DNA of 22,902 nucleotides from an uncultured virus (IMG/VR IMGVR_UViG_3300033170_000462) (Duplodnaviria; Heunggongvirae; Uroviricota; Caudoviricetes), in IMG/VR virus record IMGVR_UViG_3300033170_000462. One strand, written 5' to 3'. A model generated the notes under the pieces. That model was not told the DNA's origin and did no database searches. It saw nothing but the letters and a program-made list of their open reading frames with translations. The translations under genes and the position numbers were made by a program. This document shows positions 10,135 to 22,902 of the stretch, in pieces; within the stretch, counting starts at the first letter, position 1; each line of letters starts with the position of its first letter.

Positions 10135-10728
10135 TTAATTTTTTACTAATAATTTTAATGCCCGCAATCGGCTTTTGACGAAGGCTGGGTGAACGTTAAA
10201 TTGCTCGGCCATATCTAATACTCCTGCTCCCGTTCGCGCTAGTTGCACCACAGGTCCTGCCGGCATTAGCAGCGCCCCAGCAAAGCGATGGGCCTGCCAT
10301 TCAGGGTTTTTGAAGACAGGAACGTCATCTTTCCGATACAGCTTCGGTGAGTCGTCGGTTTTTGTTTGCCGGAAAATTTTTAGTGCTCCGGCCCTTTCTA
10401 TTTGCGGTGCGTGAATGATGCAGTGCGCTGTTTCGTGAGCCGCAGTGGAACGAAGCAGTCTCATATTATTGCTTTCCGTTAACTCTGCGTTAATCCAAAC
10501 CTTTCTTTCGATGCAATTCGTCACGCCAAATATTTCGTGTGGCAGCTCATCGGAGACATGGTAGGTAAAACCATAGGCGTCCTCAAGATCGATTTCGGCA
10601 AACCGCTCAATATCAAATTGTACTTCCCCCGCCAATACCTCTGGTTGAAATTTCCGAATAACCGCCTCAGCAATGCCATCAATATCCCGCCCGCTCATTC
10701 CTTTAAAATCCAAGGCTAATTTTGGCAC
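10135..10728 (-). CDS. ImmA/IrrE family metallo-endopeptidase
   Basis: R.TAAHETAH (HExxH) and EWQAHRFAGALLMP. Confidence 0.92.
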   Translation of the reverse strand: MPKLALDFKGMSGRDIDGIAEAVIRKFQPEVLAGEVQFDIERFAEIDLEDAYGFTYHVSDELPHEIFGVTNCIERKVWINAELTESNNMRLLRSTAAHETAHCIIHAPQIERAGALKIFRQTKTDDSPKLYRKDDVPVFKNPEWQAHRFAGALLMPAGPVVQLARTGAGVLDMAEQFNVHPAFVKSRLRALKLLVKN

Positions 10729-10731
10729 AAA

Positions 10732-11100
10732 TCAAGTCCCCTTTCGCTTTTCAAGGCTGTTTACAAGCTTGGCAAATTCACTTTCATCCATATCCGCAGT
10801 AACACGTAAAAGGCTCAACACACTTAAAGCCGGTCTCTTGTTTATTAGGTTCTTCATGTTGACATTGATTTCTTCATTGATCTGTGTCTCGCGGTTGGCT
10901 GCGGCAACCAAATTATTCCCATCGATACTGAGAAATTCTTGTAGTTTTAACACCGCCTCCACGCGAGGTGGGTTTTTTCGACCATGCTCGATGTCCGAAA
11001 TGTAACTCACTGCCAAACCCGAAACTTCAGACAATTCACGCAGCGTTTTCCTCTCCTTCTTTCGAGCATCCCTCAACATTTGCCCGAACCGGCCCGCCAT
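10732..11100 (-). CDS. XRE-family HTH transcriptional regulator
   Basis: FGQMLRDARKKERKTLRELSEVSGLAVSYISDIEHGRKNPP; AGGAGG RBS before ATG 11100. Confidence 0.92.
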   Translation of the reverse strand: MAGRFGQMLRDARKKERKTLRELSEVSGLAVSYISDIEHGRKNPPRVEAVLKLQEFLSIDGNNLVAAANRETQINEEINVNMKNLINKRPALSVLSLLRVTADMDESEFAKLVNSLEKRKGT

Positions 11101-11160
11101 AGCTTCCTCCTTGGCTCGTTGTCCCCCTGAATTTTGCATACTGGATTTCGGCTTCATTAA

Positions 11161-11211
11161 ATTTTACGCCACCAACAAGAGTAAAATACGCTTTTGTTTT
11201 GGGAATGTCAA
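11161..11211 (-). promoter_or_regulatory. sigma70-like promoter with overlapping palindromic operator
   Basis: TTGACA (11211-11206), 17 nt, TATTTT (11188-11183); inverted repeat ATTTTAC-N13-GTAAAAT at 11161-11187. Confidence 0.6.
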
Positions 11212-11347
11212 CCCAGTTTTTCGCCGTTTTTTAGAGTAAAGGTGCCCGGCGTTTTTCTAAAGTTTTTTGCGGGGTTTTTCCTGCTCAAGTGATTTCATCT
11301 GCAGCAGGGTCGCCGCAAGGTGCTGGATACGCGAAAACGTCAGCAAC

Positions 11348-11380
11348 AAAAAAAGCCCCGTCCTATAAAAGGACGGGGCT
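11348..11380 (-). terminator. intrinsic terminator downstream of SDH protease gene
   Basis: Minus strand GCCCCGTCCT-tttat-AGGACGGGGC followed by T7. Confidence 0.85.
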
Positions 11381-11456
11381 AAAAAGGCAAAATATTCAGT
11401 GTTTAAACCATTTGACTCATTCGAATTTTTGGAATCTGGTTGCCGATGACGCCTTG

Positions 11457-12437
11457 TTAGGCTGGAAGGGTTGGAAATTCTTCTGATTGCTGGTGAATAC
11501 TCTCTGGTAATTCGCCGCAGCTATTTCCGTCTGGCGCCGCAAAATTTCCCCCATCAGGTCCTGCCTCACGGGCTTCATGGTTTTCCTCCTCGTTGTTATC
11601 TTCTGACTCTGACAACCAAACGTTCAAAACAGAGTCGCATGGGTCCTTAACATGCTCCTCCAGCAGCAACTCAAGTACTGTCTCAGTTTCATTAGGCTGC
11701 CTAACATTTCCAAAAAGCTTTTTCGCCTCTTTAAAGTTTATCACAAATCCGTGGGATGGATAGCCAACGGTAAGATTTGTTACTGCATCGCTTTTGTTGG
11801 TTAAAAGCGAGCCATATGCCTGCGTAATTGCTAGCGCGCGATTAACTTCTCCTAGCCTGAGTGGGTCCAATTGTGCGGCAATGGGCGACATAACCCCAAC
11901 CGCTAGGTTGGTTGCGATCTCTGCCGCTGTTTTTGTTTTTATAGAATCTCCGCTATTTCTTTTAATATTAATAAAAAAGTGCTCGAACATTGAAAAGGTA
12001 GCAGTTTGCAAGCTAGTAAGCGCTTGAAGGTAAATCAAGCCAGACTCAGATGATAACAACTCATCAGGTTTTGAAAGCTGAATATCAATTGGCCCGAATT
12101 CGCCTTGGGCCCCCATCACAATCTGGTCTGCACCTAAAGCGATAAGGGTTCCCGCGCTTTTGCAAATACCAAAAACATATATGGTAAAGATTTTGTAATA
12201 TTTTTTGAAAAGGTCTGCGATTAGATACGCGGCATTGGGATCTCCACCATAGGTGCACAATAATAGGCTGGCGTTTGGCCTTTTGCACGATATACGGCTG
12301 AAGTTATCATACATTTGTTTTGCGGCTGCTCGACTGATATCTCCGTTTAATAGAAACAGATCGGAATCTGTCTCAGCAGAGACATGACGTGCATACTCTT
12401 TGATTTTGGCTACCCTCATTTTTGCTTCTTCTTGCAT
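11457..12437 (-). CDS. SDH family Clp-fold serine proteinase (SDH_sah/S49-like)
   Basis: TYGGD..AAY.IA, KSAGTLIALGAD.IVMG..GEFGPIDIQ, GYPSHGFVI; GGAGG RBS before ATG 12437; AT-rich relative to flanks. Confidence 0.85.
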   Translation of the reverse strand: MQEEAKMRVAKIKEYARHVSAETDSDLFLLNGDISRAAAKQMYDNFSRISCKRPNASLLLCTYGGDPNAAYLIADLFKKYYKIFTIYVFGICKSAGTLIALGADQIVMGAQGEFGPIDIQLSKPDELLSSESGLIYLQALTSLQTATFSMFEHFFINIKRNSGDSIKTKTAAEIATNLAVGVMSPIAAQLDPLRLGEVNRALAITQAYGSLLTNKSDAVTNLTVGYPSHGFVINFKEAKKLFGNVRQPNETETVLELLLEEHVKDPCDSVLNVWLSESEDNNEEENHEAREAGPDGGNFAAPDGNSCGELPESIHQQSEEFPTLPA

Positions 12438-12547
12438 TAACTCCTCCAAACAAAAAACAAAATCCGCCCTTCCAGGGGCGGGTTGCGGAGGTACAAGTAT
12501 TTTGAATGATTAATACAACCTAAATCAAATTGAAGTCAAGCGGTTTT

Positions 12548-12859
12548 TCAAAACAACCCCATCTGCCGAGGGTCCACGCCATGCACCCGCTCATAGGTGT
12601 TATTCCGGCCCAAAAACTCAACCAGCTCATCAAATCGAACGCGCCGTGACCGGCGCAGCATGTAGGAATCGAGACTGCAGGGGCAGGTAGGCTGCCCCGT
12701 GTCCGGATCGCGCTCGTAGGCGGCGACCAGGCGCCAGAAGGTGCGGTCGGAGACGCCCAGAATGGCCTGCACTTCGCCCGGGGCGTAGCTGGATTTTTTC
12801 GGCAACCCGGCCGCGCGCAGCATGCCCAGCAGGCGTTGTTCGGCCAGTTCGTGATTCAT
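12548..12859 (-). CDS. HTH DNA-binding protein, putative middle/late transcription regulator
   Basis: SYAPGEVQAILGVSDRTFWRLV (MerR/excisionase-like HTH); sits at the end of the early region, where Mu-like phages carry Mor/C activators; GGAGG RBS. Confidence 0.7.
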   Translation of the reverse strand: MNHELAEQRLLGMLRAAGLPKKSSYAPGEVQAILGVSDRTFWRLVAAYERDPDTGQPTCPCSLDSYMLRRSRRVRFDELVEFLGRNNTYERVHGVDPRQMGLF

Positions 12860-12876
12860 AATCCCTCCCGGATAAA

Positions 12877-12955
12877 GGCAGGCTGAAGGCTGAAGTCCGA
12901 AGGCTGAAGACAAAGCCAGCTTCCTTCAGTCTTCAGCCTTCAGTCTTCAGTCTGT
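12877..12955. repeat. inverted pair of heptamer arrays (GGCTGAA)n ... (TTCAGYC)n
   Basis: ggcaggctgaaggctgaagtccgaaggctgaagac ... ccttcagtcttcagccttcagtcttcagtctg; can form a long hairpin. Confidence 0.8.
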
Positions 12956-13739
12956 TCCCAAATTTCCGCGCCAGCTTGCGCGCCAGTTCAGCGCCCTGGC
13001 GGCGCTGGTCGGCATCCTCCGGCGGTTCCGCCAGCCGTGGCTGAGAGGGCCGGCGTGGCATGTGCGCCCAGATGGCCTTGGGTTCCGGCCATTTTTCAAC
13101 GGACTTTAAAAGGCCGGAAAAGGCCGCTTTAACCCGCTGTGAATCCACGGCCTCGATGCCGCAACTGCCGGCCATGACGTGGTGCCAGACATCGGCGGTG
13201 CGGGTGATCACGTCGGCACCGGGCGCGCCATCCAGCCCCATGACCACCAGAGCGGCCAGGCCGTCGGCGATGCGGCTGCGCAGCCAGTCGCCGGCGCCCC
13301 AGGCCGCCAGATCGGCGATGGCGCGGGCGCGTTTGCCGGTGGGTGGGTCGGTGGCGGCTCTTGATGCCCGATCGGGCGATGGGGAAACCACAACATTGGA
13401 GCTCACTGTCTCGATCACCGATTGCAAATAGCGATGGTCCTTGAGGGGCTTAAATGTGCCTTGGTCACGCTTACGGCGCAGAGCCTCGACTGTCTCGCCC
13501 AGCGCCATAACTAAAATGCGAGGTTCAATATCCAATGCCAATACTTCCTGAGCTAACCGCAGGGCTCGATTGTGAGCTAGGTCGCGGGTGGCTGGTCGAA
13601 AACATCCAAGGTATGATGCCAGCGGGCCGAAGAGGGGGCCTGACTTGGCCAGAAGAATAAGTAGTTCTCGGCCATCCGCGTCGGATGTGTAAGCTTCTAT
13701 GCTGTTACTACTGTGACAAATTGGACAACGTAGTTTCAT
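12933..13739 (-). CDS. Mu-like prophage hypothetical protein with N-terminal CxxC
   Basis: Probable start MKLRCPICHS at ATG 13739 with AAGGGA RBS; YLGCFRP...L...RALRL and PLKDHRYL motifs recall Mu-like early proteins. Confidence 0.75.
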   Translation of the reverse strand: MKLRCPICHSSNSIEAYTSDADGRELLILLAKSGPLFGPLASYLGCFRPATRDLAHNRALRLAQEVLALDIEPRILVMALGETVEALRRKRDQGTFKPLKDHRYLQSVIETVSSNVVVSPSPDRASRAATDPPTGKRARAIADLAAWGAGDWLRSRIADGLAALVVMGLDGAPGADVITRTADVWHHVMAGSCGIEAVDSQRVKAAFSGLLKSVEKWPEPKAIWAHMPRRPSQPRLAEPPEDADQRRQGAELARKLARKFGNRLKTEG

Positions 13740-13743
13740 GATT

Positions 13744-13821
13744 CCCTTGCTTTGCATCGCTATACAGAGCCTCGCCAAGCCACACTCGGCCTTGCAAAAC
13801 ATAGCATTGCGTGGCATTGCC
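13744..13821 (-). ncRNA. 5-nt-periodic array 2, (NGY-NN)n, candidate guide RNA
   Basis: GGC aa TGC ca CGC aa TGC ta TGT tt TGC aa GGC cg AGT gt GGC tt GGC ga GGC tc TGT at AGC ga TGC aa AGC aa GGG; 15 of 16 triplets are NGY. The periodicity is seen directly; RNA function is inferred. Confidence 0.7.
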
Positions 13822-13901
13822 GTTTGAATCGGCTGCTCATCAGGCCCAAAGCACCACCTCCGGGCGACCGGCCCCCGCAGGGGCACGGTTTCGCTTGAAA
13901 C
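13822..13901 (-). ncRNA. hammerhead ribozyme (type II topology) between the arrays
   Basis: GC-GAAA-CCG.GCCCC[ugcg]GGGGC-CGG-UC / GCCCGGAG[guggug]CUUUGGGC-CUGAUGA-GC; complete core, GUC triplet at 13868-13866. Confidence 0.85.
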
Positions 13902-13974
13902 ACCTTGCTTTGCATTACCGCGCTTGGCTTTGCCCGGCCAAAGCGCACAGTGCGATGCCATGGCTTGCCTAGCC
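13902..13974 (-). ncRNA. 5-nt-periodic array 1, (NGY-NN)n, candidate guide RNA
   Basis: GGC ta GGC aa GCC at GGC at CGC ac TGT gc GCT tt GGC cg GGC aa AGC ca AGC gc GGT aa TGC aa AGC aa GGT; 13 of 15 triplets are NGY; begins 10 nt after the stop of the RAMP-like gene. Confidence 0.7.
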
Positions 13975-13984
13975 AGATTTCGTA

Positions 13985-14557
13985 TCAACTGCCTTTATTT
14001 TCCTTCCACTCGACCACTGCAAACTTGCCGAACGGGCCGCGCCGGTCCGGTCGGAAATCGCCAAGTCCAACCTTCTTCCCAGCGTCGTCGACGATTTGCC
14101 GCACTAGAGCGGGACTGAACATCTCGGTATCAATATCCAATGTGAAGGAAAGTTTCCATTCGTCGAGTCTTGGCCTGTGGCACATGATGCGGCCACCAGT
14201 AGAGGGGATCACCACGCTGCGACTATCGACCTCGAACATTTTGGTCCCCAAAGGGCAGGCCAGATCGAGCAGGGCCACTCCGGCAGGAATCAGGCTGGAG
14301 CGCAGGGTGGTTACTTTACTTTTGCCACATTTGTGAAATTTCCCTGCGGCGATGATGGCGGCAAAGATGTTCGGTCCTGGGATAAAGAGGTTGCCCTTGT
14401 CATCGGCATACACCTTTTTCTCTGCACTTTGCCTGGGCGTCCCTTTTGCCCCTAGAGTCGTGCCAGATGTTCCGTTGGAAACTTTCACCTGGGCCTCTTC
14501 GGTAAATCGATTCATCAGCAGCGGAGTAGTTCCTTTGATCTTTACGGTGACAAGCAT
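13985..14557 (-). CDS. stand-alone RAMP/Cas7-like protein (candidate Vipr-like RNA-guided effector), 190 aa
   Basis: AGGAGG RBS, start MLVTVKIKGTTPLLMN; LFIPGPNIFAAI (cf. RAMP IPGSSxKG); C-terminal Gly-rich loop VGLGDFRPDRRGPFGKF. Fold inferred from motifs only. Confidence 0.65.
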   Translation of the reverse strand: MLVTVKIKGTTPLLMNRFTEEAQVKVSNGTSGTTLGAKGTPRQSAEKKVYADDKGNLFIPGPNIFAAIIAAGKFHKCGKSKVTTLRSSLIPAGVALLDLACPLGTKMFEVDSRSVVIPSTGGRIMCHRPRLDEWKLSFTLDIDTEMFSPALVRQIVDDAGKKVGLGDFRPDRRGPFGKFAVVEWKENKGS

Positions 14558-14559
14558 AG

Positions 14560-14736
14560 TTAATCCTCCTTTTGATGTTTGATCTTGAGTTCCGAAGCGA
14601 TACCCAGCGCAAATAAGCATACGCGCAATTCGTCCAAGGCGTCCTGGACACGGTTCAGCAAAGACGGCGTTGGGGGTTTTGCGGAATGCTGGCGATCGGG
14701 AAAGGGAATGACGCGGGTGGGTTGTCTGCTTTTCAT
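14560..14736 (-). CDS. 58-aa ORF under C4 control (icd/ant-like position)
   Basis: MKSRQPTRVIPFPDRQ...; AAGGAG RBS overlaps the b2 target; stop 2 nt before the RAMP-like gene start. Confidence 0.6.
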   Translation of the reverse strand: MKSRQPTRVIPFPDRQHSAKPPTPSLLNRVQDALDELRVCLFALGIASELKIKHQKED

Positions 14737-14744
14737 GACACGCT

Positions 14745-14783
14745 CCTTGTGAGGGGTTTCGTCATGCCGTTTTGCGCTGCCAA
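14745..14783 (-). promoter_or_regulatory. C4 downstream target a2/b2
   Basis: a2 TTGGCAG (14783-14777) and b2 TCACAAGG (14752-14745), complementary to C4 segments CTGCCAA and CCTTGTGA. Confidence 0.75.
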
Positions 14784-14791
14784 ACGCAAAA

Positions 14792-14863
14792 GGGCGACCG
14801 TGCGGGTTGGCAGACCGGTCACAAGGTACCCGGCGAGCCCGAAGGCTCCCCGCACGGCCGCCC
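14792..14863 (-). ncRNA. C4-type antisense RNA
   Basis: Cloverleaf: closing stem GGGCGGCCGTGCGG/CCGCACGGTCGCCC, GAGCC-TTCG-GGCTC hairpin, CCGG..CCTTGTGA..CCGG (b') and CTGCCAA (a'); flanked by complementary targets on both sides as in P1/P7 c4. Confidence 0.85.
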
Positions 14864-14892
14864 AGACGAAACGGAGCAATGCCATGCTGTGT

Positions 14893-14985
14893 GGACACAA
14901 AAATACCGCCAAATGCTCTGGGCGGTTGTGTCCGCCTCGTGAAACGGGCTGCCAAACCCGATCGCTGGATTTTGCCAGCGACAGA
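14893..14985 (-). promoter_or_regulatory. c4-a1b1-like leader with terminator-like hairpin
   Basis: a1 TTGGCAG (14955-14949) in CGGG..CCCG stem; b1 TCACGAGG (14942-14935); GGACACAA-CCGCC...GGCGGT-ATTTTTGTGTCC. Confidence 0.75.
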
Positions 14986-14988
14986 TTT

Positions 14989-15017
14989 ACGGTAGCCCAT
15001 GTGCGGTTTTGTGTCAA
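14989..15017 (-). promoter_or_regulatory. putative sigma70 promoter of C4 cassette
   Basis: TTGACA (15017-15012), 17 nt, TACCGT. Confidence 0.5.
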
Positions 15018-15026
15018 GCTCTGCCA

Positions 15027-15461
15027 TCATTCCCTTCTTTTCCCCCGCCGTTTCTGGTCGTAAACCAGCGCCGCCACGATCCGCCGCAGCTGATCGGCCG
15101 TGCAGAAGCGCACCAGGTCGATGCCGAACATGTGTTTGGCCATGGCGTCCGCGTAGGCCCAAGGCCGCCCGGCTTCGGCCAGCAGCGCCTCAATCTTGGC
15201 CAGGTAGCCGTCCTTGTCCACCGGCGCCGCGCCGGCAAAGGGCCGTTTCCCGGCCCGCTTGGGCGCGCCTTTCTTGCGCCATACCCCGGCGGCCAGGGCC
15301 TTGGCTTCCAGATCGGCCAGCAGGGCGCCTGCGTCGCGGTCGGACAGCTGCTTGCTGCTGGTTACGCCGTAACCGGCCAGCACCGCCCGGTAATCGTCGT
15401 CATTCAGCCCCAGGGCGCCCTTGACGGTATGAATCAGCTTGATCTGCGTCGGGTTGGCCAT
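15027..15461 (-). CDS. gemA: GemA/gp16 family regulatory protein (DUF1018)
   Basis: IKLIH..K.ALGLNDDDYRAVL...GVTSSKQL, KIEALL...RPWAYADAMAKHMFG, QLRRIVAAL. Confidence 0.88.
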   Translation of the reverse strand: MANPTQIKLIHTVKGALGLNDDDYRAVLAGYGVTSSKQLSDRDAGALLADLEAKALAAGVWRKKGAPKRAGKRPFAGAAPVDKDGYLAKIEALLAEAGRPWAYADAMAKHMFGIDLVRFCTADQLRRIVAALVYDQKRRGKRRE

Positions 15462-15750
15462 GGCCGTCTCCTTGGGGCTGCAGGTATTGGGCGCTGGCGG
15501 CGGCAAACCGCTCGCGGGCGCGCTTGAATTCATCGGCGGCCGCCAGAAAGGCCCGACGGCCTTCCGGGGTGCGGGTATCCTGAGCGGCCATGCGGGCGCC
15601 GGCGGCATCCATCTCGGCCAGGGCCTGTTCGGTTTCCAGCTCGTATTCCAGCCAGCGCAGCCGCTCCTGCAGGGCGACGCGGTTGTGTCGGCAAAGGGCG
15701 CGCAGGGCGCGTTCCAGGGCCGGGTTGGCGGTCTGTTCCGGGTGGCTCAT
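15400..15750 (-). CDS. hypothetical helical protein
   Basis: Start MSHPEQT overlaps upstream stop; GGAGGT RBS. Confidence 0.65.
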   Translation of the reverse strand: MSHPEQTANPALERALRALCRHNRVALQERLRWLEYELETEQALAEMDAAGARMAAQDTRTPEGRRAFLAAADEFKRARERFAAASAQYLQPQGDGHGQPDADQADSYRQGRPGAE

Positions 15751-16157
15751 CCGAGCACCTCCATCAATTCGAGGGTTTGGAATGTTTTCTGATAGTGCCG
15801 GCGGATCGCCGTGGCGTTGGGCCAGCACGCGTCAAAATAGTGCCACCGCCGATCGGGATCGAAGGCCGGCCCCAACGTCTTGCGCATCGGCTTGCTGAGC
15901 TTTTTCAGACTGGCCCGCTCCTTGGGCCTGCACAGGTACCTGGAGGCCGGCCGCAGGCAGCGTTGCTCGGGGTGCGCGTTGTCCGCCAAGAACCATTCCC
16001 CCCGATAAACGCCGTTGACATAGGTCAGGATGCCGAGGCGGTTTTTACTGACGAGGGTCCGGTAGAAGGTCACCTCGAACTGGTCCGCCTTGATTTTGGC
16101 GCTCCCGTAGGTACCGGAAAGCGCCTTCTCGACTGCCGCCCATTCTTCCTTGGTCAT
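15747..16157 (-). CDS. phage hypothetical protein
   Basis: Start MTKEEWAAVEKALS, GGAGG RBS, ATGA overlap; YVNG..RGEW motif. Confidence 0.75.
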   Translation of the reverse strand: MTKEEWAAVEKALSGTYGSAKIKADQFEVTFYRTLVSKNRLGILTYVNGVYRGEWFLADNAHPEQRCLRPASRYLCRPKERASLKKLSKPMRKTLGPAFDPDRRWHYFDACWPNATAIRRHYQKTFQTLELMEVLG

Positions 16158-16351
16158 CCGTCCTCCGTCTTCGCCAGGCTCACCGGATACGGCCAGGGCG
16201 CGGGGTGCCCCGGCATGTGTTTGGCGTCCCACTCCACCCAGTCGGGGCACTGCTTGCCCCACTTGCGGATGGCCCGCAGGTGGTCGGGATGCCGGCACCA
16301 TTTTTCCAGGCCGCGAAAGCCGAAGTATTTGCAATCCCCGCACGAGGGCAT
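16154..16351 (-). CDS. small Cys-rich hypothetical protein
   Basis: MPSCGDCKYF...WC...QCPDW; coupled to next gene. Confidence 0.6.
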   Translation of the reverse strand: MPSCGDCKYFGFRGLEKWCRHPDHLRAIRKWGKQCPDWVEWDAKHMPGHPAPWPYPVSLAKTEDG

Positions 16352-16364
16352 GTTTTTCCCTTCT

Positions 16365-16384
16365 GTCTTCAGCCTTCAGCCTGC
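16365..16384 (+). repeat. heptamer repeat (TTCAGCC)n
   Basis: gtcttcagccttcagcctgc. Confidence 0.65.
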
Positions 16385-16389
16385 TTCTT

Positions 16390-16456
16390 GTGGCTGCTCA
16401 TCAGTGCCGGGCCGCCACGCCCGGCAGACCGGCCCCTTGCGGGGCGCGGTTTCGCA
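16390..16456 (-). ncRNA. hammerhead ribozyme (type II topology, pseudoknot)
   Basis: UGC-GAAA-CCG.GCCCC[gcaa]GGGGC-CGG-UC / UGCCGGGC[guggcg]GCCCGGCA-CUGAUGA-GCA-GCCAC; loop GUGGC pairs with 3' GCCAC. Confidence 0.9.
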
Positions 16457-16627
16457 TCAGCACAGGGCGAGTTCCTGCTCGCCGGTATCCATATTCTCCA
16501 AAACCTCCACCTTCACCGCCTCGCCGAAGCTGTCGGCGAGGGGCATTGCGTCGGGAAACTCGGCCAGGGCCTGGCGCAGAGCGCCCACCGTCTCGATGCC
16601 GACGATCTCGCGCAACAGCTTCAGCAT
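16457..16627 (-). CDS. 56-aa hypothetical protein (MLKLLREIVGIETVGALRQALAEFPDAMPL...)
   Basis: Hand-translated; below track cutoff; CAGGT RBS-like; overlaps upstream stop; stop abuts the ribozyme. Confidence 0.6.
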   Translation of the reverse strand: MLKLLREIVGIETVGALRQALAEFPDAMPLADSFGEAVKVEVLENMDTGEQELALC

Positions 16628-16857
16628 GGCGCACCTGCCTCGGCTTCAGTCTTCAGCCTTCGGCCTTCAGCCTGCCTTTCGGCATGGCTGGCCGCGATGA
16701 GGGCCGGCCGGCGGCAGTTGGGGCAGCGCAGGTATTTGATGGGGCGGCTGAAGCCGGCGGGGCCGGTCGGGTAGCTGAGGCGGTGGCGCTGCTCGACAAA
16801 AAACCCGACCTTGCAGCCCGGCTGGCTGCAGAATGCGGTGACCAGATAGGGCATCAC
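16621..16857 (-). CDS. small hypothetical protein with two Cys pairs
   Basis: C...GC ... CPNC; start overlaps the gam stop; 3' end contains heptamer repeats. Confidence 0.55.
   Translation of the reverse strand: MMPYLVTAFCSQPGCKVGFFVEQRHRLSYPTGPAGFSRPIKYLRCPNCRRPALIAASHAERQAEGRRLKTEAEAGAPC
16642..16676 (+). repeat. heptamer repeat (TTCAGYC)n
   Basis: ggcttcagtcttcagccttcggccttcagcctgcc. Confidence 0.7.
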
Positions 16858-17387
16858 GCCACCTCCTCAAGCTCGGTTTCGAAGGGAACAATGACAAAAT
16901 CCTCCCCTTGGCTGATGGAGATGCCCTTGACATGTTCGACAGCTTCGGGCTCTGCCAAAATGGCATCCTTGTTGATCTCTTCCTTGACGCGGATAAAGCG
17001 GTTCAATTTCAGGCTTTTGAGCGCATCAAGTACAGTAGCGACGGACCGCACACTGACCCGAGGAGGCCGCATTCTCCAGCGCACCTCGCCGGCCGACAAA
17101 TTCGCCGTCTTGACCTTGCCGTCCCGGGTTAACTCGGCGCGGTTGGCTTCACACCAGGTCTGCACCCCTTCGGTCAAGGCCTTGATGGCCTCCGCGTGAG
17201 GCCGAGCCAGTTCTTCATACTCCTGTTTGAGGGCCGCGATACGATCGTTCATCTCCGCCTGAATTCGCTCGCGTTCGCGTTGCCGGCGACCGATTTCGGC
17301 GATGGACGAAACCGTTTCCTCGCGGCTCTGGGGAACAGGAAACTTGATCGCCTCGGTTTTGATGCGGGTTGTCTTGGCCATGGTCAT
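16854..17387 (-). CDS. gam: host-nuclease inhibitor Gam family protein
   Basis: VPQSREE, GVQTWCEANRAELT..GKVKTANL..GEVRWR.RPP.V, FIRVKEEINKDAIL, EDFVIVPFE. Confidence 0.95.
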   Translation of the reverse strand: MTMAKTTRIKTEAIKFPVPQSREETVSSIAEIGRRQRERERIQAEMNDRIAALKQEYEELARPHAEAIKALTEGVQTWCEANRAELTRDGKVKTANLSAGEVRWRMRPPRVSVRSVATVLDALKSLKLNRFIRVKEEINKDAILAEPEAVEHVKGISISQGEDFVIVPFETELEEVA

Positions 17388-17393
17388 CTCCTC

Positions 17394-17630
17394 TTAAATG
17401 GCGGTTTTAAGCGGTGTTTGCAGCACCTTGCGCGGCACGATTACCGGCTTGGGCGGCTGGTAGTAACCGCACAGCGACCCGCCGTCAAGCAGGTAAAAGG
17501 CGGTCTGGTCGGCCCCTTCGGGATCGAGCAGGTAATCGGCAAAGGTGATTTGCAAAAGCGGCCCGATTTGGTGCTGCACGAACCGGTCGGCCAGGTAGTT
17601 GAGTCGTTCATTGCTCATCATCATGGTCAT
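17394..17630 (-). CDS. hypothetical protein
   Basis: GAGGAGG RBS; RLNYLADRFV...ITFADYL.DP. Confidence 0.7.
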   Translation of the reverse strand: MTMMMSNERLNYLADRFVQHQIGPLLQITFADYLLDPEGADQTAFYLLDGGSLCGYYQPPKPVIVPRKVLQTPLKTAI

Positions 17631-17739
17631 CCTCCTCGGGGATGGACGGGTTATCGTCGGTCAGCCACAGGGGCGAGAGCAGCAGCAACATGGTGCCCCA
17701 GCCCATTATCAGCCCCGCGCAAAACACCAGGCTCATCAT
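17608..17739 (-). CDS. 43-aa putative membrane peptide (MMSLVFCAGLIMGWGTMLLLLSPLWLTDDNPSIPEEDDHDDEQ)
   Basis: Hand-translated; GGAGGT RBS, ATGA overlap with upstream stop; hydrophobic N-terminus and acidic tail. Confidence 0.5.
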   Translation of the reverse strand: MMSLVFCAGLIMGWGTMLLLLSPLWLTDDNPSIPEEDDHDDEQ

Positions 17740-18140
17740 GCCGTCACCTCCTGGGTCCCGCGAGCGGGGTTGACCATGTAGCGGCCGTCGCCCACGGGCA
17801 GCAACGGCGCGGGCCGGGTGCGTTTGCTGTTGACCCAGTTATGCCAGCGTTTGCCGTGCAGGGTGCAAAAGCCGCTGTGGTTGCCGCCGTTGAGCTTCCG
17901 GCCGCAGCCGACCACCGCGCAGCGGCGATCGCGGGGGTTCGCTTCTGCCTGCCGGTGCTCGATGGCGGCCGGATCGGGGTCGGCGGCCAGGGGCCGGTAG
18001 CGGCTCAGGGCCCGCGAGCGGCGCTCGCCGCATAACACGCAGCGCACGGTCTGCAGCACGGTGCCGTTTTCCAGGTGTTCGAGCCGAGCTTCCAACGCGC
18101 CGCGCCCGGCGCGGCATTTGGGGCAATGCACGGATGTCAC
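17736..18140 (-). CDS. hypothetical Zn-binding protein
   Basis: CPKC...CVLC and C.V.GC...FC.LH motifs; GTGA overlap. Confidence 0.65.
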   Translation of the reverse strand: MTSVHCPKCRAGRGALEARLEHLENGTVLQTVRCVLCGERRSRALSRYRPLAADPDPAAIEHRQAEANPRDRRCAVVGCGRKLNGGNHSGFCTLHGKRWHNWVNSKRTRPAPLLPVGDGRYMVNPARGTQEVTA

Positions 18141-18457
18141 TGGTGGCCTCCTCTCTCGCAGGTGGGGCAGGTCTGGGTCAGCATGCGCGCCACCGGGTTG
18201 GTGTAGCGCGGCAGTTTGCGGCGCTCCTCGGCGCAGCGGCCCAGGCTGATGTCTTCGCCGAACACCGGGCAGAAAAACCGGGTGTTGCCGTAGACTTCCT
18301 CCACCCGGGTCAGCAGGTTGGTCAAATCGCCCTGGTACTTGCCGTGCCGGGCCTGGCTGACGGCGCTCTGGCTGTAGCCGATGGCCCGCGCCACGGCTGC
18401 GGCGCCGTGGGTCTCGATCATGGCCAGAAACAGGGTCATGCGGTCAGTCTGCGTCAT
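18137..18457 (-). CDS. HTH protein with C-terminal Cys cluster
   Basis: AAVARAIGYSQSAVSQ..GKY.GD, CPVFGE.I...RC, CPTC; common downstream of transposase B in Mu-like phages. Confidence 0.8.
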   Translation of the reverse strand: MTQTDRMTLFLAMIETHGAAAVARAIGYSQSAVSQARHGKYQGDLTNLLTRVEEVYGNTRFFCPVFGEDISLGRCAEERRKLPRYTNPVARMLTQTCPTCERGGHQ

Positions 18458-19019
18458 GGCGGCCTCCCTGGCTCCACACCACCTGTTCAAGGTTGGGGTC
18501 GTAAATCTGCTTGACGCGCTGGATCATGGGCGGCTTCGGGCCGCTGTAGCGGCGGCGCACGAACTGGTAGTGTTGCCCTTGCTGCGTCAGGTAGCCGGCC
18601 CGCCACAGAAAGCGGCAGTAGGTCACGGCTTCGTTGGTGGCCACCTGGTGCTCTTCGGTGCTGGCATGGATGGCCAAATCCTGCGCCGTGAACCGCCCCA
18701 GCACGCGCATGGCGCGCCACATCTGCAACCGGCCCTGGCCCATGCTCACAGGCGCGCCGTTCTTGGTGACCCGGGGCGCGTGCTGGCCGGCATCGCGGCT
18801 TAGCCGCCAGATGGAGGCGGCGCCGGGGCCGCCCTGGGCGATTTTTTCCAGATATCCGGCCCGTTCCAGGCCGATGAGGTAATCGCGGATGGTCGCTTTG
18901 CCGAGCCGGGTATGGTGGGCCAGTTCGGTGACGGTGAACTCGGGCAGAGTGCGCAGCGCCTCCCACACCGCCTGGCGCTTTTCCTCCGGCCGGGTTTGGT
19001 CGATGGGTTTGCGGGCCAT
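18444..19019 (-). CDS. tandem winged-helix DNA-binding protein
   Basis: Start MARKPID (TAATG overlap); two repeats W.A.R.L..FT...L...AGYL; GPKPPMIQR...YDPN. Confidence 0.8.
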   Translation of the reverse strand: MARKPIDQTRPEEKRQAVWEALRTLPEFTVTELAHHTRLGKATIRDYLIGLERAGYLEKIAQGGPGAASIWRLSRDAGQHAPRVTKNGAPVSMGQGRLQMWRAMRVLGRFTAQDLAIHASTEEHQVATNEAVTYCRFLWRAGYLTQQGQHYQFVRRRYSGPKPPMIQRVKQIYDPNLEQVVWSQGGRHDAD

Positions 19020-19756
19020 TACAGTTTCCTCCCCGCCGGCGCTTCGCCGGTGTAGAAGGGGCGGTGGCCCCACTCCCGCAAACCCATGGCGGGCAGGCCC
19101 TGGCGACGGGCTTCCTCGCCGATCATGGCCAGGTTCACGCACACCCGGCGCACGCTGCCCTTGGCCAGGTTGTGCAGCCTGACCAGCAGTTCGTCCTCCA
19201 CCTGCACCGCCGGGCAGTACAGCCGCGCCAGGTGCGCCACGTCGCCGGGGCTGACCGGCTGGGCGCCCTCCCAGGCCAGGATGCGGCCGTGAAACCGCTC
19301 CCAGCGCTTGAGCTTGGCGGGCAGCTGCTCCTCGCCGATGAGGGCCACCACCACGCCGGTTTCGTCGTGAATGTCGCGCACGATGTCCACCGCCGATTTC
19401 TGCACCAGGTAGTCCATCTCATCGATGATCAGTAGTTTTCCGCCGCCTTCCAGGGCCGCTACGGCCTGGGCGTACATGGCGCCGATGGTGCGCTCGGGAT
19501 GAATGCCCATCTCCTTGAGCAGTTCGCCCAAAAAGGTCTTTTTGGTCATGGTGCTGCGGCACTCCACGTAGTGGGTGGGCAACTTCTGGTAGGCGTACAC
19601 CGCCGCCGTGCTCTTGCCCCAGCCGCTGGGACCGTGAAAGCAGACCATCCCCGGCAGTCGCGGGTCGCGGTTCATGGCCCGCTCGACCAGCCGCATGAAC
19701 AGGCCGACATTGGTCAGCGGCGCGACGGTCTTGCTTCCGGAATCCATTTGTGTCAT
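19019..19756 (-). CDS. transposition ATPase (MuB-like AAA)
   Basis: Walker A GPSGWGKS, Walker B LLIIDE, LIGEE.LP.KL..WERFH.R; follows the transposase. Confidence 0.93.
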   Translation of the reverse strand: MTQMDSGSKTVAPLTNVGLFMRLVERAMNRDPRLPGMVCFHGPSGWGKSTAAVYAYQKLPTHYVECRSTMTKKTFLGELLKEMGIHPERTIGAMYAQAVAALEGGGKLLIIDEMDYLVQKSAVDIVRDIHDETGVVVALIGEEQLPAKLKRWERFHGRILAWEGAQPVSPGDVAHLARLYCPAVQVEDELLVRLHNLAKGSVRRVCVNLAMIGEEARRQGLPAMGLREWGHRPFYTGEAPAGRKL

Positions 19757-19826
19757 GCTGTAACCCTCCGTGATTGAAGTCGGACGGCCCATCCGTCCGC
19801 GATTGAAGCCGCGTTGCAGCGCGGCT

Positions 19827-21992
19827 TTATGTCGTTGTGAAGCTTGAGTAAAAATCCCCGAAGTCCTCCTCCATCTTCTGCATGGCCCGCCAGTCCGCGC
19901 TCTGCGCGAAACTGCGGAAAAACGTTTCGTCCTCGGCATACAGCGTCTCGCCGGCGTTCACCTTCGCCTCCAGCTTCTTCCAGCGGGCGTAAGAGGCTTC
20001 CGGCGTGCTGATATCGGCAGTGATGCGCGCCTTGGCGGCGGCGCCCGTCAGGCTGCGGGCCGCCTCGCTTGCGGCCTGCAGGCCCTCGCTGGTGTATTCG
20101 CGGCTGGGGCGGGGCAATGCGGCCAGTTTGTTGGCCCGTTCCGCCGCCGTGGCGCGGATTTCGTTGACGATGTCGTCCACCCCAATCTTTCTGGCGTTGG
20201 CCTTGGATTCGGCCTTGGCTTGCTGCATGGCCTTTTTCTGCATCTCCTTGGAGCGGGCCGCCACCTCGGCGCGGTCGATGCCGAGGCGGTGGGGGCACTC
20301 GGCGGTGCAGATAAACTCGCTGAACGATTCGCCGCCGAACACCATGATCCGCCCCAGATCCGCCGGGTCGTACAGCACCCGCACATCGCGGCGCACGTGT
20401 TCCCACAACTCCGGAGCCACAAACAGGCCGTAATCCAGGCGGATGCCCTTTTTGCCGACGGTGCGTATCCCGCCCTTGCCGGGGGCTTCGGCCAGCAGCA
20501 GATCCAGGGCCCGTTCGTCGCGGATGCGCTCCAGAGGCTCCTGCCATTCGGCCACCATCTGATAGGGCGTCTTGCCGTTTAACCCCTCGTGCTCCCGATG
20601 CAGGTAGATGTCGTTCACCCAGTCGTCGCAAAAGCGCTGGAAAGCCTCAGAACTCATGTTGATCTCGACCACCGCATCCTTCTGAAACAGCCGCTCCGAA
20701 AACGTCTTGCGCGCCTCGATGCGCTTGCGTTCGGCCACGCTGTGCCCGATGTAACCCGACAACAGCTCCACCAGATCGTGGGCGAAGGTGCGGAAAAACC
20801 GTTCGATGTGGGGCTTGTGCCAGGGGGAGAAGGGCGGGCACAGCACCTGCTCGATGTCGAGCATTTCGAAGACCCGCTTCATGTGGTGGCCGGTATAGTC
20901 GGAACCGTTGTCCGTCTTGGCTGTCAGCCGCCAGGGCGCAGCCGGCAGGCCCCAGTCCAGCAGCGCGTTTCGCAGCAGGGCCGCCACCGCCGTGCCCCGG
21001 GCCGTGGGGGTGATCAGCATCTTCGGCCGGCGGCTGTACACGTCGATGACGCCGCAGATATGATGCCGGCCGTCCGTGAACATCACGTCCGCCGGGGTGC
21101 CGTCGAATTCCCACAGCTGGTTCAGCACCGTCACGTGCTCCGAGGCGCTGCCGAAGGCCGTCATGTATTGATCCTTCCAGGCGTCCGGATTGGCCAGGGC
21201 GCAAAACAGCTGCGCGTTCCGGCTCTTCCAGGTGACCATCCAGGCGTTCAGGCGGCCCTGGCTCGGCAAATCGACGTCCGCCCGGGCGGCAAAGCGGGCT
21301 TCCAGTCCCTGTATCACCTGGCTGGCCTTGCAGTGGGGAAATTCCGTCATCATCGCCAACACGAAATCCCGCACTTCCGGCTGCCGATCGATCTTGGTGT
21401 CGCCCTCGCGGTTGCCGTAGCGTGCGCCCAGGTGGCCTGCTTGCTTCACCCGTCGCCGCCACTTGGCCAGGGTGCTGGGATTGACGGTGGCAATCCGCTG
21501 CCGCACCGCCTCCAGGCCCGGCCGTTGCCCGGCGTTGTACAGGGCGCTGTAACTGGCCAGCGACGGATTCACGGCCTCGCCGGACAGTTTGCGGTAGGCG
21601 GCCCAGTCCATCAGAATGGCGCTGCGGTCGGCGTCGCGCTGGCGCTCCCGTTGTGGCAGCTGCAGGGCTTTTTTCAAAACTTCCTCGGCTTGGCGCAGTT
21701 GCGTTTCGCCTTCCACCCGGGCGGCCAAGGCCAGCTTGCGGCCCGCTTCGGCGCCGTCCTTGGCCGCCTCGGAAGTCACGCCGGGGCGGGACGCGGCCAG
21801 GGCTTTCCTTATCTCCTTGGGTAATCCACTTATGAGGAATAGTCGGCGCGTTCCATTGCGGCCCTTTGAGACTTCTTCCTCGCAAGGCCAGTTTTCCTTG
21901 GAGCTTCGTTGACGCACCGCCTCTTTTGATACGCCCATGGCTTTAGATATTTCGGCCATGGTGGCCAAGTGTGGTTTGACGTGCTCTTTCAT
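19827..21992 (-). CDS. Mu-like DDE transposase A
   Basis: N-terminal HTH; catalytic WEFDGTPAD, KTDNGSDY, KPHIERFFRT; Mu C-terminal VRVLYDPADLGRI. Confidence 0.95.
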   Translation of the reverse strand: MKEHVKPHLATMAEISKAMGVSKEAVRQRSSKENWPCEEEVSKGRNGTRRLFLISGLPKEIRKALAASRPGVTSEAAKDGAEAGRKLALAARVEGETQLRQAEEVLKKALQLPQRERQRDADRSAILMDWAAYRKLSGEAVNPSLASYSALYNAGQRPGLEAVRQRIATVNPSTLAKWRRRVKQAGHLGARYGNREGDTKIDRQPEVRDFVLAMMTEFPHCKASQVIQGLEARFAARADVDLPSQGRLNAWMVTWKSRNAQLFCALANPDAWKDQYMTAFGSASEHVTVLNQLWEFDGTPADVMFTDGRHHICGVIDVYSRRPKMLITPTARGTAVAALLRNALLDWGLPAAPWRLTAKTDNGSDYTGHHMKRVFEMLDIEQVLCPPFSPWHKPHIERFFRTFAHDLVELLSGYIGHSVAERKRIEARKTFSERLFQKDAVVEINMSSEAFQRFCDDWVNDIYLHREHEGLNGKTPYQMVAEWQEPLERIRDERALDLLLAEAPGKGGIRTVGKKGIRLDYGLFVAPELWEHVRRDVRVLYDPADLGRIMVFGGESFSEFICTAECPHRLGIDRAEVAARSKEMQKKAMQQAKAESKANARKIGVDDIVNEIRATAAERANKLAALPRPSREYTSEGLQAASEAARSLTGAAAKARITADISTPEASYARWKKLEAKVNAGETLYAEDETFFRSFAQSADWRAMQKMEEDFGDFYSSFTTT

Positions 21993-22024
21993 GCCTTTTT
22001 CTCCATGGACTGCTCCTTGTAGAT

Positions 22025-22090
22025 TGGCTGCTCGTCAGGACCGGGGCGCCGCCCCCGGCCTACCGGCCCCGGTTGGGGCGCGGTTTCGCT
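22025..22090 (-). ncRNA. hammerhead ribozyme (type II topology) upstream of transposase
   Basis: GC-GAAA-CCG.GCCCC[aacc]GGGGC-CGG-UA / GGCCGGGG[gcggcg]CCCCGGUC-CUGACGA-GC-AGCC; GUA triplet at 22063-22061. Confidence 0.85.
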
Positions 22091-22566
22091 CAACATTTCT
22101 TCTCCCAGGCCTTGATCAGGCGGTCGATCTCTGCCGTCTGATGCCGCATCTCGGCCATCTGTTCCGTCAGCCGCTGTTTCTGGCTGCGCAAGGCGTCCGG
22201 GCCGCCCAGGGCGAACATCCCCACCGGCTGGCACACCACCTCCAGCGGCCGTGTGCTGCCCGTCGCCCGGCAGAAGGCCGGCGCGTACTCCAGCGGAAAG
22301 CGGTGTCCCTCCTTGCTTTCGCTGGTCCAGGCGTCCAGCATGAAGCGGCTGATCTCCTGGTCCGTCAGTTCGCTCATCTTGGCCGCAATCTCCCAGCGGG
22401 AGAGCGCGCTGCCCTTGATCGCCTCGTACAGGGCGTTGCGCACCAAGGCCCGCATGTTCAGCGCCCCCGGCGCGTCGCGCAGTCCCAACAGCATCCGCTC
22501 CTCCTCTTTCTTCAGCACGTCCAGCAAACTCAGTTGATGGGGATCGGTGGTCTTCTGTCTGCCCAT
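22090..22566 (-). CDS. phage regulatory protein (CII-like)
   Basis: GGAGG RBS; SRWEIAAKMSELT...IS..MLDAWTSESKE.HRFP....AFC.ATG. Confidence 0.75.
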   Translation of the reverse strand: MGRQKTTDPHQLSLLDVLKKEEERMLLGLRDAPGALNMRALVRNALYEAIKGSALSRWEIAAKMSELTDQEISRFMLDAWTSESKEGHRFPLEYAPAFCRATGSTRPLEVVCQPVGMFALGGPDALRSQKQRLTEQMAEMRHQTAEIDRLIKAWEKKC

Positions 22567-22620
22567 GGCGTCCTCCCTGGTCAAAACCCTGTCCGAACCG
22601 CTCCCTCCTTTTGGCCATTG

Positions 22621-22902
22621 TTAATTCATTTCAGTTTTGCTACTCTTTTTTCGAGTTATGAAGCGTGGCGGCGCGGCCCCGTAGCGGCTCGGCCAGATCT
22701 CCTCGGGCTTCACGCCGATGATGTCGGCCACAATCCGCTCCATCGGCTTCCACCCGACCCACAGCACCGAGTTCGGCGAGTTCGAGCGGTAGCCGTGCTC
22801 CCGGGCGATGCGGGCGAAGGTATAGTCCTTCTTCGCCAGGGCGGCCTTGATATCCGCCGGGTGCCAGTCCGTTTTCGGGGTGTGTTTCTTTGCGCAGTTC
22901 AT
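22621..22902 (-). CDS. ner: Ner-like DNA-binding protein
   Basis: DWHPADIKAAL.K, E.IVADIIGVKPEEIWPSRY. Start is at the window edge. Confidence 0.9.
   Translation of the reverse strand: MNCAKKHTPKTDWHPADIKAALAKKDYTFARIAREHGYRSNSPNSVLWVGWKPMERIVADIIGVKPEEIWPSRYGAAPPRFITRKKSSKTEMN

What the first reader, a model, noticed from the sequence alone, without database searches (positions are those of the whole stretch)
16390..16456. Second hammerhead in the early operon, with the best-formed pseudoknot
It starts immediately after the TGA of a 56-aa ORF. It has a perfect 8-bp stem I, GCAA-capped stem III, GUC site (cut between 16427 and 16426) and a 5-bp loop I/3' tail pairing GUGGC:GCCAC. Stems I differ in sequence among the three copies but keep pairing, which is within-genome covariation supporting a functional RNA.
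Basis: partly seen in the sequence, partly recalled or inferred. Interest (0 to 1): 0.7.

Follow-up and report, generated by a model that had tools for sequence, protein, structure and literature searches.

The report
Known hammerhead ribozyme in Mu-like prophage
A complete type II hammerhead motif (a known self-cutting RNA) sits right after the stop codon of a small early gene in a Mu-like prophage and likely cuts the long early message into hairpin-ended pieces, an arrangement already described for such phages, so the find is real but ordinary.

Summary
Confirmed base by base. 16390-16456 (minus strand) is a canonical type II hammerhead (Rfam RF02276, 70 bits, cut-off 37): intact core, 8-bp Watson-Crick stem I, GUC site (cut 16427|16426), 3-bp stem II, 5-bp loop I/tail pseudoknot. 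It is the middle of three copies in a Mu-like early operon. Covariation is real: 24 of 24 stem I pairs hold across the copies; at the orthologous site of a related phage lineage all 6 of 67 differences are paired stem I changes; across 177 stem I variants 97.9% of positions pair (shuffles 61%). The fifth pseudoknot pair is not conserved in the family (62 of 270). Clustered, pseudoknotted type II hammerheads in prophages and their link to Mu-like genes are published, and this scan has noted them on other DNA (23 findings, 20+ genomes). Likely role: cutting the early mRNA into a transposase-to-Gam piece and a downstream piece; cleavage is not shown here. Two extras: the family usually starts 1-7 nt after a stop codon (61 of 87 non-redundant sites), which could let ribosomes gate cleavage; and the third copy separates two VIPR-type guide arrays predicted to target related Mu-like phages.

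The parts
16390..16456 (-). Type II hammerhead ribozyme motif, middle copy (HH2), whole element
   Evidence: RF02276 16388-16457, 70 bits; anatomy
16454..16456 (-). Stem II 5' strand (UGC), first three bases after the stop codon
16450..16453 (-). Core G12-A13-A14-A15.1 (GAAA)
   Evidence: core consensus as in PMC3088659
16428..16450 (-). Stem III with one bulged C (16446) and GCAA loop (16440-16437)
   Evidence: pair probabilities 0.88-0.92 in context
16427..16429 (-). GUC cleavage triplet; predicted cut between 16427 and 16426
16405..16426 (-). Stem I (8 WC bp) with loop I GUGGCG at 16418-16413
16398..16404 (-). Core CUGAUGA
16395..16397 (-). Stem II 3' strand (GCA)
16390..16394 (-). 3' tail GCCAC, predicted pseudoknot partner of loop I GUGGC
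   Evidence: family statistics
16457..16627 (-). 56-aa ORF whose TGA ends 3 nt before the GAAA core; orthologue at 51% identity in a related phage lineage
   Evidence: no PHROG, no Pfam hit over cut-off
16352..16389 (-). 38-nt leader after the ribozyme: period-7 repeat (GGCTGAA type) and a purine-rich ribosome-binding site
16154..16351 (-). 65-aa Cys-containing ORF, first gene of the predicted downstream cleavage product
   Evidence: 51-58% identical orthologues after the ribozyme in relatives
22022..22091 (-). Sister hammerhead HH1 (GUA site, cut 22061|22060), 2 nt after the stop of a 164-aa regulator and just before transposase A
13827..13896 (-). Sister hammerhead HH3 (GUC site, cut 13866|13865), between two VIPR-type pentamer arrays
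19827..21992 (-). Mu-type transposase A, first gene of the predicted HH1-HH2 segment
   Evidence: phrog_310, E 5.7e-97
16854..17387 (-). Mu Gam-like end-protection gene, upstream of HH2
   Evidence: phrog_491, E 1.1e-57
15027..15455 (-). GemA, downstream of HH2
   Evidence: PF06252, E 4.6e-18

Best explanation
This is a canonical pseudoknotted type II hammerhead motif, the middle of three in the early operon of a Mu-like provirus, and it likely cleaves the polycistronic early mRNA after C16427 to uncouple the upstream transposition genes from the downstream genes. Shown: the sequence, its fit to the family, selection on its pairing, its place between a stop codon and the next ribosome-binding site. 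Established for the family: the core catalyses 2'-OH attack, leaving a 2',3'-cyclic phosphate and a 5'-OH, and the loop I/tail pseudoknot speeds this up. Inferred: if HH1 and HH2 both cut, a 5,634-nt piece (transposase A, B, Gam, 56-aa ORF) is released that ends in the stem III hairpin, and the downstream piece (65-aa ORF, phrog_5671 gene, GemA and on) starts with a 5'-OH and an 8-bp hairpin at its first base. Only the 3-bp stem II and the core join the two products, so they would part and the cut would be close to irreversible. A base-paired 5' end without a monophosphate would be a poor substrate for RppH and 5'-end-dependent RNase E, so each piece would get its own half-life and translation context.
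For: RF02276 70 bits against a cut-off of 37, all 66 model positions. All core bases canonical. Orthologous site in one related lineage (L004, L009, L018, L020, near-identical to each other): 61 of 67 bases identical, all 6 differences are two-sided stem I changes, while the upstream gene is 108 of 168 identical. 177 distinct stem I variants collected with a pattern that did not require pairing: 1386 of 1416 cells pair (97.9%), shuffles mean 60.6% and maximum 64.9% of 1000, slid registers 28-50%. Same strand as the genes, no terminator-like site on the minus strand between 22902 and 12657. 112 of 166 family contexts lie near a same-strand homologue of this window's early genes. Three tandem-hammerhead arrangements cleaved in vitro and one in vivo; 14 of 18 consensus hammerheads tested were active (PMC3088659). 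5' secondary structure is stabilising because RNase E and RppH need single-stranded 5' ends (PMC3997798).
Against: No cleavage of this copy has been shown, and no raw RNA reads were available. The early promoter lies beyond the end of the record, so one long transcript is assumed; a C4/isrK-type control region at 14789-14995 may add its own start or stop inside the downstream piece. Nearest-neighbour folding gives stem II a pairing probability of 0.0 (the model ignores the core and pseudoknot). The element is patchy: my pattern hit 5 of 78 Gam-related loci, two of them near-identical records of this phage, and Rfam found it in 4 of the 15 loci scanned; many of these loci have short flanks. In hosts with RNase J a 5'-OH product is degraded, not protected (glmS), and the host is not known.
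Confidence: 0.7

Rival explanations
1. Translation-gated cleavage: a ribosome at the stop codon of the 56-aa ORF covers stem II and the GAAA core, so the cut happens only when that gene is not being translated or after the ribosome leaves. This modifies the best explanation and does not exclude it.
For: The stop ends 3 nt before GAAA here and the stop position is kept in relatives with different upstream genes. Family-wide a stop codon closing an ORF of 40+ aa ends 1-7 nt before GAAA in 125 of 167 contexts (control windows mean 4.7, maximum 17), 61 of 87 after redundancy reduction with ORFs of 50+ aa. That a ribosome covers roughly 6-9 nt beyond the A-site codon is from my own knowledge.
Against: The 3' side is nearly as tight (SD-like run within 7 nt of the tail in 39 of 73), so compact phage gene packing explains most of the pattern. 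HH3 in this window is 92 nt from the nearest stop. Termination is brief relative to cleavage at about 1 per minute, and a comparable cluster cleaved in vivo.
Confidence: 0.2
2. The cut mainly destabilises: it starts decay of the upstream transposase/Gam piece or of the downstream piece, and acts as a timer that limits early gene output.
For: glmS self-cleavage triggers RNase J decay; ribozymes placed in bacterial 3' UTRs alter expression (PMC6765202, PMC5502269).
Against: Both predicted products end in stable hairpins, and the family keeps a ribosome-binding site right behind the tail, which fits continued translation of the 3' product.
Confidence: 0.2
3. Pairs of copies release segments that are then circularised, by re-ligation of chimeric halves or by a host RtcB-type ligase.
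For: Segments between copies would carry 5'-OH and cyclic phosphate ends; stem II is GC/GC in all three copies, so halves are formally interchangeable.
Against: Perreault et al. looked for spliced or circular products and found none. A 2-3-bp stem II favours product release. No joint at any cut site among the contigs laid (contigs cannot show absence).
Confidence: 0.05
4. HH2 is part of the VIPR cassette and serves to release the vipr/guide transcript.
For: The HH2-HH3 segment (2,561 nt) contains the Cas7-like gene and the first guide array; hammerhead-interspersed VIPR arrays are described.
Against: No pentamer array next to HH2 (1 of 8 in phase). HH2 is kept at the same gene junction in relatives where no homologue of the Cas7-like gene was detected (L004, L009, L018, L020), and lies 1.8 kb and four or five genes upstream of it.
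Confidence: 0.04
5. An inactive relic or a misfolding copy with no function.
For: 4 of 18 consensus hammerheads tested by Perreault et al. were inactive; patchy presence among relatives.
Against: Perfect core, and orthologous copies differ only by compensatory changes while flanking coding DNA is 64% identical; stems I and III dominate the ensemble in 200 nt of native context.
Confidence: 0.06

Closest known systems
Type II hammerhead ribozymes with loop I/3'-tail pseudoknot (Rfam RF02276; Perreault et al. 2011, PMC3088659; passages, section 6 and first part of the Discussion read)
   Same: Permutation, core, short stem II, pseudoknot, prophage location, clustering of several copies between genes, proposed mRNA segmentation.
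   Different: Nothing in the motif itself. This copy has 3-bp stem II (103 of 270 family members) and an all-Watson-Crick 5-bp pseudoknot (18 of 270), both within the family's range.
Triple hammerhead clusters of Agrobacterium tumefaciens, Azorhizobium caulinodans and Clostridium scindens (PMC3088659, section 6 read)
   Same: Several ribozymes in one polycistronic region; those were shown to cleave.
   Different: Tested constructs were about 2 kb; here the three copies span 8.2 kb and bracket the transposase-to-Gam block. Activity not tested here.
Self-cleaving ribozymes associated with Mu-like phage genes (stated in PMC10085705 and PMC6765202, passages read; the primary papers Roth 2014 and Weinberg 2015 not read)
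   Same: Strongest gene association of bacterial hammerhead and twister ribozymes is with Mu-like phage genes; purpose still described as unknown.
   Different: None; this is one more instance.
VIPR hammerhead-interspersed guide arrays (bioRxiv 10.64898/2026.04.26.720920; passages and parts 1-2 of 6 read; figs S19-S20 seen as legends only)
   Same: Applies to the sister copy HH3, which separates two NGY/NN arrays behind a Cas7-like gene.
   Different: HH2 has no guide array beside it and occurs at this junction in relatives without a detected Cas7-like gene.
glmS ribozyme (passages in PMC3997798, PMC6765202)
   Same: Self-cleavage in a bacterial mRNA leaving a 5'-OH product.
   Different: Different fold, ligand-dependent, triggers decay; no ligand-binding element here.

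Membership tests
Hammerhead type II (RF02276) | Covariance-model score above the gathering threshold over the full model | tested here: met
   70 bits vs 37, positions 1-66 of 66
Hammerhead type II (RF02276) | Conserved core CUGANGA, GAAA and NUH triplet with core-adjacent pairs intact | tested here: met
   CUGAUGA 16404-16398, GAAA 16453-16450, GUC 16429-16427; adjacent pairs U-A, C-G, A-U
Hammerhead type II (RF02276) | Stems I and III closed by loops, stem II open and short | tested here: met
   stem I 8 bp + 6-nt loop, stem III + GCAA loop, stem II 3 bp open
Hammerhead type II (RF02276) | Loop I / 3' tail pseudoknot of four or more pairs | tested here: met
   5 complementary pairs; fourth pair formed in 238 of 270 family members, fifth in 62 of 270; the three central pairs were fixed by my search pattern and so not tested for covariation; formation not shown
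Hammerhead type II (RF02276) | Covariation in stem I | tested here: met
Hammerhead type II (RF02276) | Self-cleavage at the predicted site | not testable with these tools
   Only assembled contigs were available
Mu-like (transposable) prophage early operon | Ner-like repressor, transposase A, transposition protein B, Gam, GemA co-oriented upstream of lysis and head genes | tested here: met
   PHROG 769, 310, 296, 491, 894, 426, 2, 113, 328; PF06252
VIPR ribozyme-guide array (for HH2) | Adjacent pentamer GGY/NN (or related) guide array | tested here: not met
   1 of 8 pentamers in phase after HH2; upstream is coding
VIPR ribozyme-guide array (for HH3, noticed in passing) | Lone RAMP/Cas7-like gene plus pentamer arrays that decode by the 1-nt skip rule to phage coding sequence in codon phase | tested here: met
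   Fold matches Cas7/Csm3-type chains, best E 1.3e-06; 13 of 18 and 15 of 17 pentamers in phase; decoded matches 25/30 and 24/30, null maxima 20-23 and 20-22 in 40 shuffles each
VIPR ribozyme-guide array (for HH3, noticed in passing) | Guide RNA expression, binding to Vipr, and assignment to one of the seven types | not testable with these tools

The most novel reading that the evidence does not exclude
Prophage type II hammerheads are stop-codon-docked switches: the core starts inside the footprint of the terminating ribosome, so translation of the upstream gene sets when the early mRNA is cut, coupling release of the transposase-to-Gam message to translation flux.
Probability: 0.2. Interest if true: 0.6.

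Novelty: new member of a known kind. Interest (0 to 1): 0.2.

Why it matters
As a motif it adds one more example to a family with hundreds of prophage members (about 660 viral and 330 genome stretches estimated for my pattern alone). Its modest value is as a test bed: the purpose of ribozymes in Mu-like early operons is still described as unknown (PMC10085705, PMC6765202), and this operon has three copies with different jobs in prospect (before transposase A, between accessory genes, between two guide RNAs). If the stop-codon docking proved regulatory it would give these orphan ribozymes a control logic.

Tried and rejected
RNA evidence: no run held half of the stretch and all were contigs. 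In the one run on record as RNA (X5) a contig of a related strain stops at 16463, 36 nt short of the cut, with no cover downstream, and two contigs leave a gap at 22051-22090 across HH1, while the other run of that sample (X10, kind not on record) covers both sides. This is one study, low depth, and X5 contigs also break at several places without ribozymes, so I do not count it. Small-share wastewater runs are probably DNA and say nothing on habitat. Promoter/terminator scan of 11000-22902: counts at chance level (5 vs 3.2; 13 vs 16.5), no early promoter in the window. Pfam/PHROG give no name for the 56-aa and 65-aa flanking ORFs (one sub-threshold DUF6225 hit). Idea that HH2 belongs to the VIPR array: rejected. 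Idea that the 5-bp pseudoknot is a conserved family trait: rejected. Guide decoding with skips of 0 and 2 gave 20-22 of 30, no better than shuffles. Literature searches for ribosome- or stop-codon-gated hammerheads in phages gave nothing relevant; Felletti et al. 2016 (PMC5785228), which may treat ribozyme position in 3' UTRs, is not held, and Roth 2014 and Weinberg 2015 were not read, so the stop-codon pattern may be in print. Supplements of the VIPR preprint could not be seen and may already list this locus type; I did not open the supplements of PMC3088659.

Full report
Observation. Rfam scores it as Hammerhead_II (RF02276) at 70 bits against a cut-off of 37, and finds two more copies, 22022-22091 (46.9 bits) and 13827-13896 (51.9 bits). 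These three are the only copies in the 84.9-kb provirus record. A structural descriptor found 0 hits in 1.03 Mb of resampled control sequence.

Context. The minus strand carries a Mu-like early operon: Ner-like repressor, a regulator, transposase A, transposition protein B, Gam, several small ORFs and GemA, followed by endolysin, terminase, portal and protease genes. All three hammerheads are on the coding strand and in gene gaps. The record ends at the start of ner, so the early promoter is not in view.

Covariation. Within the genome all 24 stem I pairs hold; four positions change on both sides, two on one side, two are invariant. Three copies are few, so I looked at relatives. One related phage lineage (four near-identical contigs, counted once) has the ribozyme at the same gene junction: 61 of 67 bases are identical and all six differences are three two-sided stem I changes, while the upstream gene is 108 of 168 identical. 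Pooled with the loci this gave 270 distinct motifs and 177 distinct stem I variants, in which 1386 of 1416 positions pair (97.9%); 1000 shuffles gave a mean of 60.6% and a maximum of 64.9%, and slid registers 28-50%. Relatedness among sequences was not modelled. For the pseudoknot, the fourth pair forms in 238 of 270 and the fifth in only 62 of 270; the central three were fixed by the pattern. So this copy's 5-bp pseudoknot is the longest of the three but its fifth pair is not a family trait, and Perreault et al. found that extra pairs in stems I or II lowered activity in their construct.

Distribution. 112 of 166 family contexts with long flanks lie near a same-strand homologue of this window's early genes. 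The element is patchy among Gam relatives: 5 of 78 loci by my pattern, two of them near-identical records of this phage, and 4 of the 15 loci that I gave to Rfam, in each of those four about 0.6-0.7 kb downstream of gam; many loci have short flanks.

Mechanism. By established hammerhead chemistry the cut leaves a 2',3'-cyclic phosphate upstream and a 5'-OH downstream. Stems I and III are predicted at 0.74-1.0 and 0.88-0.92 in 200 nt of native context; stem II scores 0.0, as expected from a model that ignores the core and pseudoknot. The upstream product would end in the stem III hairpin and the downstream product would start with an 8-bp hairpin at its first base, followed by the leader and ribosome-binding site of the 65-aa gene. 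If HH1 and HH2 both cut, a 5,634-nt transposase-to-Gam piece is released; HH2 to HH3 is 2,561 nt. RNase E and RppH need single-stranded 5' ends (PMC3997798, passages), so the downstream piece is likely protected in an RNase E host; in an RNase J host a 5'-OH end can start decay (same paper). I commit to segmentation into separately stable pieces at 0.7. Cleavage of this copy, the long transcript and the stability effect are all inferred.

Stop-codon docking. Of 277 distinct contexts, 167 had 700 nt of flank on both sides; in 125 of these a stop codon closing an ORF of at least 40 codons ends 1-7 nt before GAAA, against a mean of 4.7 (maximum 17) in equal windows further upstream and 3 in an antisense control with ORFs of 60+ codons. 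After clustering upstream sequences the figure is 61 of 87 (ORFs of 50+ codons). Against a regulatory reading: the 3' side is almost as tight (39 of 73 within 7 nt of an SD-like run), so packing may suffice, and HH3 is 92 nt from a stop. A ribosome at the stop would cover stem II and GAAA (footprint size recalled, not from a call). I found no paper on this, but Felletti et al. 2016 was not held. Two earlier notes of this scan touch the same idea.

RNA data. Only assembled contigs were available and none settles the question (see Tried and rejected).

What is known. Perreault et al. 2011 (PMC3088659; passages, section 6, first part of the Discussion) described natural type II hammerheads, the pseudoknot and its mutational test, multiple copies flanking genes in prophages, the segmentation hypothesis, cleavage of three tandem arrangements in vitro and one in vivo, and no circular products. 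PMC10085705 (passages) states that the strongest gene associations are with Mu-like phages and that the reason is unknown; PMC6765202 (passages) repeats the polycistron-processing idea. PMC5737381 and PMC5502269 (passages) added little. The scan has 23 earlier findings of this kind in at least 20 genomes.

Neighbouring VIPR locus. The 190-aa protein at 13985-14557 folds (pLDDT 84.9, alignment of 71 sequences: the window protein and 70 of the 120 listed hits) like Cas7/Csm3-type chains, best E 1.3e-06. Two period-5 NGY/NN arrays flank HH3 (13 of 18 and 15 of 17 in phase), the only such spot in the record. The loci were chosen for kinship with this phage, so other targets are not excluded. The phage's own orthologous codons score 11 and 15 of 24. 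HH3 is therefore likely a guide separator of a described kind. HH2 is not: it has no array beside it, and only 1 of 167 family contexts (HH3 itself) has one.

Verdict. Real, correctly read, under selection, and a new member of a known kind in its usual setting. Interest 0.2.

Noticed in passing
window 13740-14557 (-): VIPR-type locus inside the early operon: Cas7-like 190-aa gene (13985-14557), two NGY/NN pentamer arrays (13897-13984, 13740-13826) split by hammerhead HH3. Guides decode to gemA and the phrog_2161 gene of related Mu-like phages, while the phage's own copies mismatch. No accessory vap gene identified. More interesting than HH2 itself.
   Followed up: yes
L017, L021, L025 versus window 13827-13896: Relatives have a hammerhead just before the phrog_2161 gene without a detected Cas7-like gene, so the HH3 slot may predate the VIPR cargo and have been co-opted as guide separator.
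   Followed up: partly
window 14789-14995 (-): C4 antisense RNA (RF01695, 59.7 bits) with a1/b1 target and isrK-like matches just under their cut-offs, upstream of a short ORF and the Cas7-like gene; also in L025 and L029.
   Followed up: no
window about 16364-16385, 16640-16680, 12870-12955, 815-855: Short period-7 repeats (GGCTGAA/GACTGAA type) in or near gene gaps, one directly between HH2 and the next ribosome-binding site; at 12870-12955 they occur in both orientations. The related lineage has a different leader after HH2.
   Followed up: partly
L004 about 6070-6150 (+); also L009, L018, L020: In the related lineage the leader after the orthologous ribozyme holds a GC-rich hairpin with a T run and a stretch complementary to the downstream GGAGG, possibly a terminator or translation switch.
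   Followed up: no
L137-L139 (IMGVR_UViG_3300017605_000570): One viral contig carries at least ten type II hammerheads spaced a few hundred bases apart.
   Followed up: no
window 10135-12449 (-): AT-richer cargo between early and lysis genes: ClpP-like SDH protease gene, HTH gene and an ImmA/IrrE-like metallopeptidase gene, with a terminator-like hairpin at 11380-11354 and a promoter-like site at 11211.
   Followed up: no
L029 8158-8230, L031 8097-8161: Family variants with one extra base between CUGAUGA and the stem II/tail strand, still above the Rfam cut-off.
   Followed up: no
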